A DNA stretch of 64,000 bases. Origin: a virus. The first letter of the stretch is position 1. Each line of letters begins with the position of its first letter. The notes under the pieces were generated by a model. The model was given only the letters and a program-made list of their open reading frames with translations, was not told the origin of the DNA and ran no database searches. The stretch covers positions 65,960-129,959 of IMG/VR virus record IMGVR_UViG_2706796514_000001. One strand, written 5' to 3'. Shown piece after piece: positions 8,843 through 12,059 of the stretch. The position numbers and the translations under genes were made by a program.

Positions 8843-9457
8843 CTAGAACGGTTGATAATCCACGCGATGCAATAGTTGCCCATATACAAAGGTTTCATCT
8901 TTTTCACGTTTTTCCGCTAGTTCTATATAATGAACAGATTGCATCGCATTAAGTCCATTGTACACTACATTCTCTGCTGCAGCATTACCTCTCTTATAAC
9001 AAAGACCTCTGTAAGCATTAATAGTATCACTTCCTAGGTATCCGTCAACCTCTATATCAGAATAATACTCACCTTTATTGTTGAGCACATTCAGGATACG
9101 TTGTATCCACTTGATAGGTGTTCGGCTACCAGTGTTAACGCCTGTATCAAATAACTCTTTCGCTAACAAAGAAGACTCTTCTGCCACCAAGTAGATTTTC
9201 GGTCGGTAGTAGTATTCGTATGCGTAAACATCCTGTGCGAATGCCAACGGCATTGATGTGATGTCACCATTCCAATTATAGTGTACCCACTCGTAGCCAA
9301 AGTTCATAGCCGTTTGGTATGTAATACCATAGTTGGTTTCACCACCAGAATCGTCCTTATTATTAACGTAACCCCCTTCTGCCTTGATAGTTTGGTCAAT
9401 AAAAGTCTGTACGTAATCAGGTGATTCCTTGTAAGCGTTTAGTATTTTACTACTCAT
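8843..9457 (-). CDS. glycoside hydrolase family 108 endolysin with a C-terminal peptidoglycan-binding domain
   Basis: EGGYVNNKDDSGGETNYGIT signature; LFDTGVNTG; IEVDGYLG. Confidence 0.9.
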   Translation of the reverse strand: MSSKILNAYKESPDYVQTFIDQTIKAEGGYVNNKDDSGGETNYGITYQTAMNFGYEWVHYNWNGDITSMPLAFAQDVYAYEYYYRPKIYLVAEESSLLAKELFDTGVNTGSRTPIKWIQRILNVLNNKGEYYSDIEVDGYLGSDTINAYRGLCYKRGNAAAENVVYNGLNAMQSVHYIELAEKREKDETFVYGQLLHRVDYQPF

Positions 9458-9576
9458 ATAATTTAATCCACCCTATATCAACCATATTCTTAATAAAAGT
9501 TTTATTCCTGTACTCTTTAGGTAACACTTTTACCATTAGGTTTACTGTTATCAGGAATATCTTTATCCTAGTTGTG

Positions 9577-9861
9577 TCACTCATCTACTTTAACCTCAAC
9601 ACCTTCCACGATAACTGGTATAATCAAGCCTAAACTCTCTACGTGCTCCTTAGCTGCTTGGTACAAAGATAAAAACTCTGTAGCAAACCCATCCTCATTC
9701 TTAGTAATAAACACACTCTGGGATAATCCACTCTCGGTAACTTTATCATTCCACAAATTACGTAGCTTAACTGCTTCTTCATCTACAACTTCTTGTGTCA
9801 ACTCGGGTTGTTCGTAATCACAATGACCTTCTGTGCCAACGTTTGTATATTCTTCACTCAT
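9577..9861 (-). CDS. hypothetical acidic protein
   Basis: 94-aa ORF with AAGGAG SD. Confidence 0.8.
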   Translation of the reverse strand: MSEEYTNVGTEGHCDYEQPELTQEVVDEEAVKLRNLWNDKVTESGLSQSVFITKNEDGFATEFLSLYQAAKEHVESLGLIIPVIVEGVEVKVDE

Positions 9862-9959
9862 AAACTTCTCCTTTCATACTCTATCAACTTTACTGAACAT
9901 TGTGTAACAAACTTTAACACTTACTACCAGTAATCACAATATCCTCATTCTTAATTGTT

Positions 9960-10017
9960 ATATAACAAGTGATTCAACGAAGATTCGCTACGCTCACTTG
10001 TTAACCAAGCGTTATAC
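9960..10017 (+). mobile_element. integron attC site 1
   Basis: R'' ATATAAC, 5 nt, L'' ATTCAACG (extra C), spacer, L' TGTTAAC, 5 nt, R' GTTATAC: canonical 7-5-8-n-7-5-7 layout. Confidence 0.85.
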
Positions 10018-10099
10018 GTTTCACACGTTCAGAGTAGTGTGATACTCTTGGTACTCTGTAGTGTTAGCTACAATCCCTAAATTAATAAGGAAATTAAAA
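10011..10099 (+). repeat. cassette leader, direct repeat copy 1 (copy 2 at 11419-11506)
   Basis: about 88 bp identical apart from one A; contains TACAAT and an AAGGA SD before an ATG. Confidence 0.95.
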
Positions 10100-10327
10100 A
10101 TGAACACCCAAGAATATAAGCTGTAGAGACAATACGAACCGAGAATAGATGAAATCAATTCACGTTTAGATATTGTGGATGAGGAAATACCTAAATTACA
10201 AAAGAAGTATCGTACTTCTGGTTACAAAGCTTCTGCCATAGATGAACTTTTATCTTACGAGAAAGAGTCTAGCGAACTTCACCAAGAAAAGTTTCAAATT
10301 TGGAATAAGATAAAAACTGGTCTATAG
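10100..10327 (+). pseudogene. cassette A plus-strand gene with a premature amber codon
   Basis: ATG 10100 after SD; TAG at 10124-10126; the same frame stays open to TAG 10325-10327. Confidence 0.7.
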
Positions 10328-10514
10328 CTTCTGAGACGTTCAATGCAAACTCCTCTGTATCTAACACTTTAGTATCAAGGGCTTTTCCTTGTTTTTGGGC
10401 GGATAATATTAATTTATTTATCTCATAGCGGTTTTCTAAAGTATTTTCCATTTGAGACACAATATCTTTAAACATCTTCAAATCAAAAAGGGCTTTATCT
10501 GTTACATCATTCAT
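10269..10514 (-). CDS. cassette A minus-strand hypothetical protein
   Basis: 81-aa ORF with GAAGGA SD in the repeated trailer. Confidence 0.8.
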   Translation of the reverse strand: MNDVTDKALFDLKMFKDIVSQMENTLENRYEINKLILSAQKQGKALDTKVLDTEEFALNVSEAIDQFLSYSKFETFLGEVR

Positions 10515-10569
10515 ATTATTTTCCTTCTATATTATTTAAAATTAAACTTGCTCACTATTGAACATAAAC

Positions 10570-10626
10570 GGATAACAAGTTGCTAAAACGGACTCACTAC
10601 GTTCGCCGCTTAGCAAGGCGTTATAT
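10570..10626 (+). mobile_element. integron attC site 2
   Basis: GGATAAC-AAGTT-GCTAAAAC...GCTTAGC-AAGGC-GTTATAT; identical to attC4 up to the crossover. Confidence 0.85.
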
Positions 10627-10651
10627 GCTCCTCTAATCCTGAGAATACGTC

Positions 10652-11263
10652 TCATTCAAGAGGTTTTTCACACTTTTTCAGTAAATCCATTAAGTGGGAA
10701 TGATCCTCTAAGTTAGTCCCCTTATCATACTTCTTTTGGTAGAGTTTAAAAGCTTCTGAAGTATTGGATATAAAAGGGAACCGTTTAAGTTCTTTACTCT
10801 CGTCATTGTTAGTCCCAAACTTCCCAAAATTATACATAACCTCCATACAATAGAAGTGGTTTATTGCTAAGTTCTCAACCTTCTTTATAGCTTCGTCTAC
10901 GGGTATTTCAAATATATCTCCCATATCTACGAAAGAGTTCTCAAATTTTAAAAACCTCCGCAAAGCTTCTTTGTCTTTTGTCCCATAAGAAAACAAGGAA
11001 AATTTGACCCATCCCCGTAAGTCATCCCAGCAAAACTGACCTGCATACTCATAACTACAAACGGCAGTGTCACCACAAGGGTTGTATTTATTCCAACATA
11101 AAGTGTTGTATAGGTTTTGTATGCTAGTTAAACTATCCTCTTTCCTTTTAAATTCTTTCCTAAATCGGTACCTACTTAGTAATCCTACGAACACTGCGCC
11201 TCCTATAACAGGTAGTATTATCCAGACTATTTTATTAAACACTTCTTTAATTAAATCTTCCAC
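10652..11263 (-). CDS. cassette B protein with an N-terminal transmembrane helix
   Basis: 203-aa ORF (GTG start) lying between attC2 and attC3, antisense to the attC orientation. Confidence 0.8.
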   Translation of the reverse strand: MEDLIKEVFNKIVWIILPVIGGAVFVGLLSRYRFRKEFKRKEDSLTSIQNLYNTLCWNKYNPCGDTAVCSYEYAGQFCWDDLRGWVKFSLFSYGTKDKEALRRFLKFENSFVDMGDIFEIPVDEAIKKVENLAINHFYCMEVMYNFGKFGTNNDESKELKRFPFISNTSEAFKLYQKKYDKGTNLEDHSHLMDLLKKCEKPLE

Positions 11264-11348
11264 TTAACAATTCCATTTTAGAAAATTGCATAATACCCTG
11301 TAATAACTGCTAAATAAAATTAAGTCTTGGTAGCTTTATTTAAAAAGC

Positions 11349-11425
11349 ATATAACAAGACAATTAAGAAGGACACGTAACAGCTCGCTACGCTCCTTCAC
11401 CGTGCCTCTTATTGAGGTGTTATAC
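11349..11425 (+). mobile_element. integron attC site 3
   Basis: ATATAAC-AAGAC-AATTAAGA...TCTTATT-GAGGT-GTTATAC; inner CACG/CGTG stem; R'' is the exact complement of the cassette B start GTTATAT. Confidence 0.85.
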
Positions 11426-11506
11426 GTTTCACACGTTCAGAGTAGTGTGATACTCTTGGTACTCTGTAGTGTTAGCTACAATCCCTAAATTAATAAGGAA
11501 ATTAAA
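11419..11506 (+). repeat. cassette leader, direct repeat copy 2
   Basis: matches 10011-10099. Confidence 0.95.
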
Positions 11507-11755
11507 ATGATTAGTTACAATGAAGAAACGGTATTCAACATAACTTTTGAAACTAAGAGATCAAGCACTTGGGTTGATATGTTTGAAACGGAAATGTATT
11601 TCAATTATCTCCCTAGAACCAATGATATTATAAACATCGACTCTTGTTACATGAGAGTTTTATCTGTTGAATACGATTATAAGTTTCAGTTCAACCCTAC
11701 TGTTCGTGTTGAAGAGCTTGGGCACTTTGAAGAATACTCTCGTAATCATCTTTAG
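11507..11755 (+). CDS. cassette C plus-strand hypothetical protein
   Basis: 82-aa ORF with AAGGA SD in the repeated leader. Confidence 0.8.
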   Translation: MISYNEETVFNITFETKRSSTWVDMFETEMYFNYLPRTNDIINIDSCYMRVLSVEYDYKFQFNPTVRVEELGHFEEYSRNHL

Positions 11756-11915
11756 GTCGTTTCTGACCGCACCATGAAAGGATTTGGTTACTGAAACGGT
11801 TTAGTGGATCTTGTGGGTTCGTTAAGAGTACGGCTTTAATATTAAGAGTTTTTAGCTGTTCTTCAAAACTACCCTTAATTTCCACCAACTTATTCTCTTG
11901 TGTAATCACGTACAT
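11697..11915 (-). CDS. cassette C minus-strand hypothetical protein
   Basis: 72-aa ORF with GAAGGA SD in the repeated trailer. Confidence 0.8.
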   Translation of the reverse strand: MYVITQENKLVEIKGSFEEQLKTLNIKAVLLTNPQDPLNRFSNQILSWCGQKRPKDDYESILQSAQALQHEQ

Positions 11916-11971
11916 ATTAATTTTCCTTCTATATTATTTAAAATTAAACTTGCTCATTATTGAGCATAAAC

Positions 11972-12028
11972 GGATAACAAGTTGCTAAAACGGACTCACT
12001 ACGTTCGCCGCTTAGCAAGGCGTTATCT
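11972..12028 (+). mobile_element. integron attC site 4
   Basis: same sequence as attC2, with R' GTTATCT; the preceding ~50 bp (11920-11971) repeats 10518-10569 with two substitutions. Confidence 0.85.
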
Positions 12029-12030
12029 AA

Positions 12031-12059
12031 ATACTAACAAACCTCAATCTCGATGTCAA
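12031..12059 (-). promoter_or_regulatory. sigma70-type phage promoter firing into the cassette array
   Basis: TTGACA-17-TAGTAT; predicted start near 12024, at the attC4 crossover. Confidence 0.7.

What the first reader, a model, noticed from the sequence alone, without database searches (positions are those of the whole stretch)
9957..12028. Integron gene-cassette array embedded in a lytic phage genome
Seen in the sequence: four co-oriented sites (9960-10017, 10570-10626, 11349-11425, 11972-12028) with exact attC geometry, namely an RYYYAAC-like R'', 5 nt, an 8-nt L'' with one extra base, a palindromic spacer, a 7-nt L', 5 nt, and R' GTTA. They delimit units of 609, 799 and 603 bp, each with cassette-sized ORFs. 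Established: attC arrays normally sit in bacterial integrons, are moved by IntI, and often carry toxin-antitoxin or anti-phage genes. No IntI is present in this window. Inference: the phage uses a host (or distant phage-encoded) integron integrase to load cassettes at a GTTAT secondary site. That would make this locus a swappable accessory slot and the phage a cassette vector between hosts.
Basis: partly seen in the sequence, partly recalled or inferred. Interest (0 to 1): 0.92.

Follow-up and report, generated by a model that had tools for sequence, protein, structure and literature searches.

The report
Integron cassette array in phage PH101
The four sites are genuine integron attC recombination sites that bound three mobile gene cassettes in the lytic marine phage PH101. 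This array was already published in 2023, but the same cassettes also sit almost unchanged in host-genus chromosomal integrons, and related wild phages carry different sets of them.

Summary

**What is there**
All are on the + strand (33-50 bits, E 5e-7 to 6e-12); the next best hit is 14.6 bits.
- The phage has no tyrosine recombinase. The locus is therefore a CALIN (a cluster of attC sites lacking an integrase), not a complete integron.

**Already known**
- Sites 1 and 2 match, letter for letter, the PH101_attC1 and PH101_attC2 oligonucleotides of Qi et al. 2023 (PMC9892861).
- That paper reported this CALIN in virulent Pseudoalteromonas marina phage PH101. It showed that IntI1 recombines both sites with attI1.

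**Added here**
- All three cassettes occur at 99.4-99.8% identity in Pseudoalteromonas integrons, next to intI/attI (strain BSi20480, strain S554 and metagenome contigs).
- PH101-like phage contigs carry five different cassette sets: 1-2-3, 1-2-4-3, 1-2, 3 alone, and 3-5. Every breakpoint lies at the GTT of R'.
- Each cassette's R'' stays complementary to the R' at its own 5' boundary, as expected for crossover at G|TT.
- 106 of 140 Pseudoalteromonas species genomes encode an integron integrase.

Cargo function is unknown. Two other first-reader notes of this scan cover the same stretch.

The parts
9957..9966 (+). Left junction of the array, the 10-nt palindrome GTTATATAAC. The 11 nt AATTGTTATAT (9953-9963) are identical to the attI core next to the first cassette in Pseudoalteromonas sp. 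BSi20480.
   Evidence: Sequence; comparison with the attI region of L147. The left flank is conserved in all PH101-like contigs.
9960..10017 (+). attC site A1, equal to PH101_attC1 of Qi et al. 2023. It stands alone with no cassette body before it and is present in every related phage contig seen.
   Evidence: R1 hit of 33.3 bits, E 5e-7. Identical to the Table S3 oligonucleotide. IntI1 x attI1 recombination is published.
10012..10620 (+). Cassette 1 (609 bp). It has a 5' leader with promoter-like sequence and RBS (10011-10099), a + strand ORF at 10100-10327 (75 codons, broken here by TAG at 10124-10126), and a - strand ORF at 10269-10514 (81 aa).
   Evidence: The body is 99.4-99.6% identical to cassettes in Pseudoalteromonas sp. 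BSi20480 (L147), sp. S554 (L015) and the intI-adjacent contigs L146/L151/L153.
10570..10626 (+). attC site B1, the attC of cassette 1, equal to PH101_attC2 of Qi et al. 2023.
   Evidence: R1 hit of 35.6 bits, E 1e-7. Identical to the Table S3 oligonucleotide. The fold shows an R stem, an internal loop and a 7-bp L stem.
10621..11419 (+). Cassette 2 (799 bp). It carries a 203-aa ORF on the - strand (10652-11263, GTG start, N-terminal hydrophobic segment), which is reversed relative to its attC.
   Evidence: 99.75% identical (2 mismatches in 799) to the second cassette of the BSi20480 integron. A 52% homologue in L001 is flanked by attCs of the same family.
11349..11425 (+). attC site A2, the attC of cassette 2. 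It is 77 nt long, a shortened relative of the ~100-nt bacterial sites.
   Evidence: R1 hit of 49.9 bits, E 6e-12. Its R'' ATATAAC is a 7/7 complement of the cassette's own 5' boundary GTTATAT.
11420..12022 (+). Cassette 3 (603 bp). It has the same 5' leader and 3' end as cassette 1 but a different convergent ORF pair: + strand 11507-11755 (82 aa) and - strand 11697-11915 (72 aa).
   Evidence: Exactly absent in X13, L013 and L167. It is the only cassette in L009, and the first cassette after a bacterial attI in L008 at 99.83% identity.
11972..12028 (+). attC site B2, the attC of cassette 3, and the right junction with phage DNA (GTTAT|CT).
   Evidence: R1 hit of 34.5 bits, E 2e-7. The right flank is conserved in all phage contigs whatever the last cassette is.
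12031..12059 (-). Sigma-70-like phage promoter (TTGACA, 17 nt, TAGTAT, with an upstream TG). It reads leftwards into the array, in the direction of the 72-, 203- and 81-aa ORFs.
   Evidence: Consensus scan, 10 of 12 matches. This is a consensus match only; transcription was not tested.

Best explanation
The locus is a CALIN: four co-oriented, functional integron attC sites that bound three gene cassettes. It lies in virulent Pseudoalteromonas marina phage PH101 (or a near-identical isolate). The array sits between the endolysin block and the ribonucleotide reductase genes, directly downstream of a leftward phage promoter. The phage has no integrase. The most likely mechanism is that, during infection, the integron integrase of the Pseudoalteromonas host acts on folded attC strands of replicating phage DNA. 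It would excise, insert and reorder cassettes by attC x attC (and attC x attI) recombination with crossover at G|TT, so the phage locus and the host chromosomal integron draw on one cassette pool. Shown here: attC family membership, cassette boundaries, sharing with intI-linked bacterial arrays, and cassette-level polymorphism among wild phages. Shown by others: IntI1 recombines sites 1 and 2. Inferred: that host IntI is the enzyme acting in vivo, the timing, and any phage-to-bacterium delivery. Cargo function is unknown. The ORFs on the - strand are co-oriented with phage transcription.
For: (1) Model R1, built from 48 bacterial attCs, hits only the four sites in the genome. (2) The same model marks co-oriented arrays that start beside intI in P. 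amylolytica, P. neustonica, P. sp. ZZD1 and Colwellia piezophila. (3) Sites 1 and 2 are identical to PH101_attC1 and attC2, which recombined with attI1 under IntI1 at frequencies like attC-aadA7. (4) In BSi20480 the order is intI (398 bits on TIGR02249), attI, a 158-aa cassette, cassette 2 (99.75%), then cassette 1. This lies beside serS, crcB, rarA, lolA and ftsK. Cassette 1 is first after attI in L146/L151/L153, and cassette 3 is first after the same attI in L008. (5) Phage contigs carry 1-2-3, 1-2-4-3, 1-2, 3 or 3-5, always between the same flanks. (6) R'' is complementary to the R' at the cassette's own 5' boundary rather than to its linear R'. This holds in 30 of 31 informative bacterial cassettes and 9 of 12 phage cassettes (7/7 against 4/7 for cassette 5 and for the L006 copy of cassette 3). 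(7) Cassette 3 is 99.0-99.3% identical in phages whose flanks are only 91-94% identical. (8) An integron integrase scores over the curated cut-off in 106 of 140 Pseudoalteromonas species genomes and in 0 of 14 controls.
Against: There is no integrase in the phage, so nothing here shows which enzyme acts. No fully empty site was found, and site A1 is fixed in every relative. PH101 shows clear homologous gene conversion inside the array: the first 89 nt of cassette 1 have been replaced by the cassette 3 version, and 15 of its 18 differences from bacterial copies lie there. Homologous recombination therefore also operates at this locus. Model R1 was trained on sites chosen with a pattern partly derived from site 3, so its score for that site is not fully independent. 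The phage-array counts include the same cassettes seen in several contigs. Metagenome contigs can be chimeric at repeats.
Confidence: 0.85

Rival explanations
1. The sites are real attCs, but cassette turnover in the phage is driven by homologous or illegitimate recombination rather than by IntI. It would act between phage DNA and host integron DNA, using the shared attC ends and the shared 89-nt and 114-nt cassette ends.
For: The 89-nt leader of cassette 1 in PH101 is a gene-conversion copy of that of cassette 3. Cassettes 1 and 3 share a 114-nt 3' end at 97% identity. Qi et al. themselves raise off-target homologous or illegitimate recombination as a possible source of the arrays.
Against: Neighbouring attCs of different types (A2 and B, B and the cassette 5 attC) share only about 8-10 nt around GTTA, yet junctions fall exactly there. 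R''/5'-boundary complementarity is preserved at 7/7 across heterologous junctions. That pattern is what G|TT site-specific crossover predicts, not homology-driven exchange.
Confidence: 0.1
2. The repeats are phage regulatory stem-loop plus promoter modules, like the PeSL mobile regulatory cassettes of T4-type phages, and resemble attC only by chance.
For: Each module carries promoter-like and RBS sequence next to an imperfect hairpin. Two modules share identical ends around different small ORFs.
Against: The repeats occur nowhere else in the genome. The same modules sit in bacterial chromosomes beside intI and attI. The sites score with a bacterial attC model and recombine with IntI1.
Confidence: 0.02
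3. Bacterial integron DNA was mis-assembled into the phage genome, so the array is an artefact.
For: Cassettes are near-identical to bacterial ones. Short metagenome contigs break at the repeats.
Against: Independent 130-136 kb phage contigs from different studies span the array with both flanks (L002, L013; the X13 50-kb contig; the Tara scaffold L167). The isolate genome carries it too, and Qi et al. list the same sites in it.
Confidence: 0.01

Closest known systems
CALIN of Pseudoalteromonas marina phage PH101 (Qi, Rajabal, Ghaly, Tetu, Gillings 2023, Front Microbiol 14:1091391, PMC9892861)
   Same: It is the same locus. Sites 1 and 2 are letter-for-letter their PH101_attC1 and attC2, the cassettes are co-oriented, and there is no integrase. 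IntI1-dependent recombination with attI1 was shown experimentally.
   Different: In what I read of that paper (section 3.4, figure legends, supplement) I saw no bacterial homologues of the cassettes, no variant arrays in related phages and no cassette-boundary complementarity test. Those are added here.
Sedentary chromosomal integrons of Pseudoalteromonas, Colwellia and other Alteromonadales
   Same: The attC family is the same (ATAACAAG ... GGAC ... GGCGTTAT). The cassette boundary rule is the same, and the actual cassettes 1, 2 and 3 are the same at 99.4-99.8% identity.
   Different: The bacterial elements have intI, attI and tens of cassettes with mostly ~100-nt attCs. The phage has no intI or recognisable attI, only 1-4 cassettes, and short attCs (53-77 nt).
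Cassette insertion outside att sites (attG; 'A new route for integron cassette dissemination among bacterial genomes', bioRxiv 10.1101/2022.09.11.507474)
   Same: It offers a route by which an integrase could have placed the first attC or cassette at a non-att site such as the GTT at 9957-9959 of the phage.
   Different: It was shown for bacterial genomes. I read only the abstract, and no empty phage site was found to test the idea.
PeSL mobile regulatory cassettes of T4-type phages (recalled from knowledge, not checked in a paper here)
   Same: Small ORFs flanked by near-identical stem-loop plus promoter modules in a variable phage region.
   Different: PeSLs are dispersed through hyperplastic regions and are shuffled by homologous recombination. 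Here the repeats are confined to one locus and are attC sites shared with bacterial integrons.

Membership tests
attC (integron cassette recombination site) | Terminal inverted core sites R'' (..AAC) and R' (GTT..) in one orientation | tested here: met
   All four sites read xxATAAC ... GTTATxx on the + strand.
attC (integron cassette recombination site) | Imperfect L''/L' inverted repeat separated from the R boxes by an unpaired spacer, with unpaired (extrahelical) bases in the folded strand | tested here: met
   ssDNA folds of B1, B2 and A2 give an R stem, a 2x2 or 3x3 internal loop, and an L stem with asymmetric bulges. The R1 alignments pair the same columns. A1 is ambiguous: its minimum-energy fold uses a competing 10-bp stem.
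attC (integron cassette recombination site) | Scores above background with an attC covariance model | tested here: met
   A family-specific model built from 48 bacterial sites gives 33-50 bits against 14.6 for the next hit. IntegronFinder's own attC model was not available and so was not run.
attC (integron cassette recombination site) | Crossover at G|TT, so that a cassette's R'' complements the R' at its own 5' boundary | tested here: met
   30 of 31 bacterial cassettes and 9 of 12 phage-array cassettes. Cassette 2 is 7/7, cassette 5 is 7/7 against 4/7, and the L006 copy of cassette 3 is 7/7 against 4/7.
attC (integron cassette recombination site) | Recombined by an integron integrase | not testable with these tools
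   Published for sites 1 and 2 with IntI1 x attI1 (PMC9892861). Not tested for sites 3 and 4 or with a Pseudoalteromonas IntI.
Complete integron | intI gene | tested here: not met
   No PF00589 match in the 131.9-kb genome, while 14 of 14 control genomes matched.
Complete integron | attI site and Pc promoter upstream of the array | tested here: inconclusive
   The left junction shares only 11 nt (AATTGTTATAT) with the BSi20480 attI core. The only strong promoter-like site lies at the other end and reads against the array.
CALIN (cluster of attC sites lacking an integrase) | Two or more attC sites close together with no intI nearby | tested here: met
   Four sites within 2.07 kb and no integrase in the genome.
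PeSL-type phage regulatory cassettes | Repeated promoter plus stem-loop modules dispersed over variable regions of the phage genome | tested here: not met
   The repeats are confined to 9960-12028.

The most novel reading that the evidence does not exclude
Wild PH101-like virulent phages and Pseudoalteromonas chromosomal integrons are exchanging whole cassettes now. The phage's three cassettes sit at or near the attI-proximal (most recently acquired) positions of host-genus integrons at 99.4-99.8% identity. Phages whose backbones differ by up to 9% carry near-identical cassettes in different sets and orders. If so, a lytic phage locus with no integrase is a working extension of the host integron, and possibly a shuttle for cassettes between cells. 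Published work proposed this but did not show it.
Probability: 0.6. Interest if true: 0.7.

Novelty: already known. Interest (0 to 1): 0.35.

Why it matters
Integron cassettes are a major pool of adaptive genes (resistance, toxin-antitoxin, anti-phage defence), and their known carriers are chromosomes, plasmids and transposons. A virulent phage that borrows the host integrase to swap cassettes would add a new route of cassette flow. It would also give the phage a plug-in slot for accessory or counter-defence genes. The existence of this array and the activity of two of its sites were published in 2023, so the finding as stated is not new. The comparative evidence assembled here turns a 'potential route' into a directly testable natural system, because named host strains (BSi20480, S554) carry the same cassettes.

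Tried and rejected
**Searches that found nothing**
- Megablast and blastn of the locus against the phage collection gave no match; the window's own record appears to be withheld. Accession KR534323 is not in the collection.
- The 199-aa flank protein and a 30-nt left-flank word found nothing in viral contigs.
- The 81-aa cassette protein found nothing in the species-representative genome contigs.
- No whole cassette body is in 140 Pseudoalteromonas species genomes; only attC-level matches appeared.
- No literature hit for the assembly accession of L015. Its organism came from cluster names instead.

- The genome search could not reach L015 by handle or draw relatives of a virus record.

**Cargo function**
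- No hit for any cassette ORF above threshold in Pfam, PHROGs or PADLOC, and no usable lead from the ESM Atlas.

**Empty site**
- None was found. The more distant relatives HM1 and J2-1/SL20 have no attC in the syntenic reductase-endolysin region. They are too diverged to define the insertion point.

**Hypotheses dropped**
- PeSL-like regulatory cassette, my initial favourite at 45%. It was rejected once the bacterial integron contexts appeared.
- An 'alternative attC' on cassette 2 in X9, X19 and L008. I reinterpreted it as an insertion just after R'' of the attC.
Full report
**1. Observation**

The region holds four co-oriented imperfect palindromes of the form xxATAAC-AAG ... GTTATxx, at 9960-10017 (A1), 10570-10626 (B1), 11349-11425 (A2) and 11972-12028 (B2).
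- The simple motif occurs 3 times against 0.36 expected by shuffling.
- The distances from the G of one GTT to the next are 609, 799 and 603 bp.
- An 89-nt repeat (10011-10099 = 11419-11507, 100% identical) starts exactly at the GTTAT of A1 and A2.
- A 114-nt repeat (10512-10624 = 11913-12026, 97% identical) ends exactly at the GTTAT of B1 and B2.
- Neither repeat occurs elsewhere in the genome.
- As single-stranded DNA, B1, B2 and A2 fold into a terminal 5-7 bp stem, a small internal loop and a second stem with bulges. A1 prefers a competing 10-bp stem.

**2. The genome**

The window is bases 65960-129959 of a complete 131,903-bp phage genome with direct terminal repeats.
- It encodes ribonucleotide reductase, DNA ligase, a Dda-like helicase, a large terminase subunit and a prohead protease.
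- Its nearest phages in the collection are Pseudoalteromonas phages HM1 and J2-1 (terminase 63%, endolysin 57% identity).
- The genome contains no tyrosine recombinase.

**3. Already published**

Qi et al. 2023 (PMC9892861) report a CALIN in the 132-kb virulent Pseudoalteromonas marina phage PH101. They cloned two of its attC sites.
- Their Table S3 sequences for PH101_attC1 and PH101_attC2 are identical to window 9960-10017 and 10570-10626.
- Both sites were integrated into attI1 by IntI1. Their frequencies were not significantly different from attC-aadA7, and the G|TT junctions were sequenced.
- The window is therefore PH101 or a near-identical isolate. The core of the finding is known and partly validated by experiment.
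- No other paper in the library mentions PH101 together with attC.

**4. Independent test of attC identity**

I derived a signature from site A2 and from sites on bacterial contigs. It matched at least 120 loci in species-representative bacterial genomes. Nearly all are Alteromonadales (Colwellia, Pseudoalteromonas, Shewanella, Psychromonas, Glaciecola and others), often several per 8 kb.

I aligned 48 of these bacterial sites and built covariance model R1 from them.
The scores are 49.9, 35.6, 34.5 and 33.3 bits, and the next hit is 14.6 bits at E 0.2.
- It finds nothing more in the rest of the genome.
- The same model marks arrays of co-oriented sites that begin a few hundred bases from full-length integron integrase genes (TIGR02249 above its cut-off). 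This holds in P. amylolytica, P. neustonica, Pseudoalteromonas sp. ZZD1 and Colwellia piezophila.
- Caveat: the training sites were picked with a pattern partly derived from A2. The score of A2 is therefore less independent than those of A1 and B.

**5. The cassettes live in host-genus integrons**

Exact-protein look-ups gave the contexts.

*Pseudoalteromonas sp. BSi20480 (L147; organism)*
- The order is an integron integrase (398 bits, cut-off 265), attI, a 158-aa cassette, cassette 2, cassette 1, then a further cassette.
- The integron lies next to serS, crcB, rarA, lolA and ftsK.
- Cassette 2 differs from PH101 at 2 of 799 positions. The body of cassette 1 is 99.4% identical.

*Other bacterial contexts*
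- Pseudoalteromonas sp. S554 (L015) carries cassette 1. It sits in an array of nine R1 hits (eight of about 100-130 nt plus the 57-nt B site) with glyoxalase, DUF1801 and LysE cassettes.
- In L146, L151 and L153, cassette 1 is the first cassette after intI.
- In L008, cassette 3 (99.83% identical) directly follows the same attI sequence as in BSi20480.
- In run X9, which lacks the phage flanks altogether, cassette 2 follows an attI-like sequence (21 of 26 nt identical).
- L154 has intI, a SIR2 cassette, then a 92% relative of cassette 1.

An integron integrase above the curated cut-off is present in 106 of 140 Pseudoalteromonas species genomes and in none of 14 control genomes.

**6. Related phages differ by whole cassettes**

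All variants lie between the same left flank (...AATTGTTATATAAC) and right flank (GTTATCTAAATAC...).

| Array | Where seen |
|---|---|
| A1-C1-C2-C3 | PH101 (this window) |
| A1-C1-C2-C4-C3 | Two ~134-kb contigs, L002/L012 and L003/L014 |
| A1-C1-C2 | L013, Tara scaffold L167, and a 50-kb contig of run X13 whose joint skips exactly 603 bp |
| A1-C3 | L009 |
| A1-C3-C5 | L005, L006, L010 |

- Runs from 9 studies hold at least half of the locus.
- Cassette 3 is 99.0-99.3% identical in phages whose flanks are only 91-94% identical to PH101. The cassettes are therefore younger than the backbones.
- HM1 and J2-1/SL20 have no attC in the syntenic reductase-endolysin region.

**7. Signature of the recombination mechanism**

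In integron arrays the crossover is at G|TT. The bases after GTT in a site's linear R' therefore belong to the next cassette, and a cassette's R'' should complement the R' at its own 5' boundary.
- This holds in 30 of 31 informative cassettes of the intI-linked bacterial arrays, mostly at 7/7.
- It holds in 9 of 12 phage-array cassettes. These are not all independent, because some cassettes recur in several contigs.
- The clearest phage cases are cassette 5 (TCCTAAC against GTTAGGA: 7/7 for its own boundary, 4/7 for the linear R'), the L006 copy of cassette 3 (7/7 against 4/7) and cassette 2 (7/7 against 6/7).
- Neighbouring attCs of different types share only about 8-10 nt around GTTA. This favours site-specific recombination over homologous exchange.

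Homologous recombination does act here as well. In PH101 the first 89 nt of cassette 1 have been converted to the cassette 3 version. Of the 18 differences from bacterial copies, 15 lie in that stretch, and other phages keep an 82%-identical leader there.

**8. Most likely mechanism, and its limits**

A host IntI supplied in trans recombines folded attC strands of the replicating phage DNA. Partners would be the phage's other attCs, and the attC and attI sites of the host integron.

The orientation deduced here puts the recombinogenic bottom strand on the window's - strand, which agrees with the strand cloned by Qi et al..

A strong promoter-like site at 12059-12031 on the - strand reads into the array. 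The reversed ORFs (72, 203 and 81 aa) are therefore co-oriented with phage transcription. This is a consensus match only.

What remains inference:
- which enzyme acts in vivo;
- whether the first insertion used the GTT at 9957 as a secondary site;
- whether cassettes ever pass from phage to a surviving bacterium.

Cargo function is unknown. No cassette ORF reached a family threshold in Pfam, PHROGs or PADLOC, and the Atlas search gave no usable lead. The 203-aa protein has an N-terminal hydrophobic segment.

**9. Verdict**

The locus itself is already known. The added value is comparative evidence for live cassette exchange with host integrons.

Two other first-reader notes of this scan describe the same stretch: the convergent ORF pairs, and the promoter at the right end.

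Noticed in passing
window 10124-10126: The 75-codon + strand ORF of cassette 1 is broken in PH101 by an in-frame TAG. Related phage contigs and the bacterial copies read TAT (Tyr) there. The 92% relative in L154 has an independent TAA 12 nt downstream, while the opposite-strand 81-aa ORF is almost invariant.
   Followed up: partly
window 10011-10099 versus 11419-11507: The 100% identity of the two 89-nt leaders is peculiar to PH101. In L002, L013 and all bacterial copies the cassette 1 leader is only about 82% identical to that of cassette 3. PH101 therefore underwent gene conversion inside the array.
   Followed up: yes
L148-L152; L008 1440-1564; L015 end; loose ends at window 11356 in runs X9 and X19: IS110-family transposase genes flank cassette 1 in several bacterial contigs. 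The A2-type attC is interrupted right after ATATAACA by the same foreign sequence (CATATGAGCCTTAAC...) in several contexts. From general knowledge this looks like attC-targeting insertion elements of the IS1111-attC kind.
   Followed up: no
window 12031-12059, - strand: A near-consensus sigma-70-type promoter (TTGACA, 17 nt, TAGTAT with TG) lies immediately right of the array. Its predicted start falls at about the GTTAT junction, so the array may sit in the 5' leader of the transcript for the 94-aa ORF and the endolysin block.
   Followed up: partly
window 9452-9867: The small phage gene left of the array (94-aa ORF at 9577-9861) is replaced by other sequence in close relatives. There are 179 other letters in a 60-kb contig of run X1, a 58-aa ORF in L002, and a 114-aa ORF in L005/L006. 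A second variable spot therefore adjoins the array.
   Followed up: no
L154 696-2228: A 510-aa SIR2_2-domain protein is the first cassette after intI in one bacterial contig, next to a relative of cassette 1. Near-identical proteins are named from P. marina and several Vibrio species. It is a likely defence cassette that moves across genera.
   Followed up: no
L157 (reverse strand), A1 variant: In a more diverged PH101-like phage, the A1 site carries changes on both sides that turn the spacer into a perfect 13-bp stem (ATAACGCTTGATT / AATCAAGCGTTAT). This shows structural rather than sequence conservation of this site.
   Followed up: no
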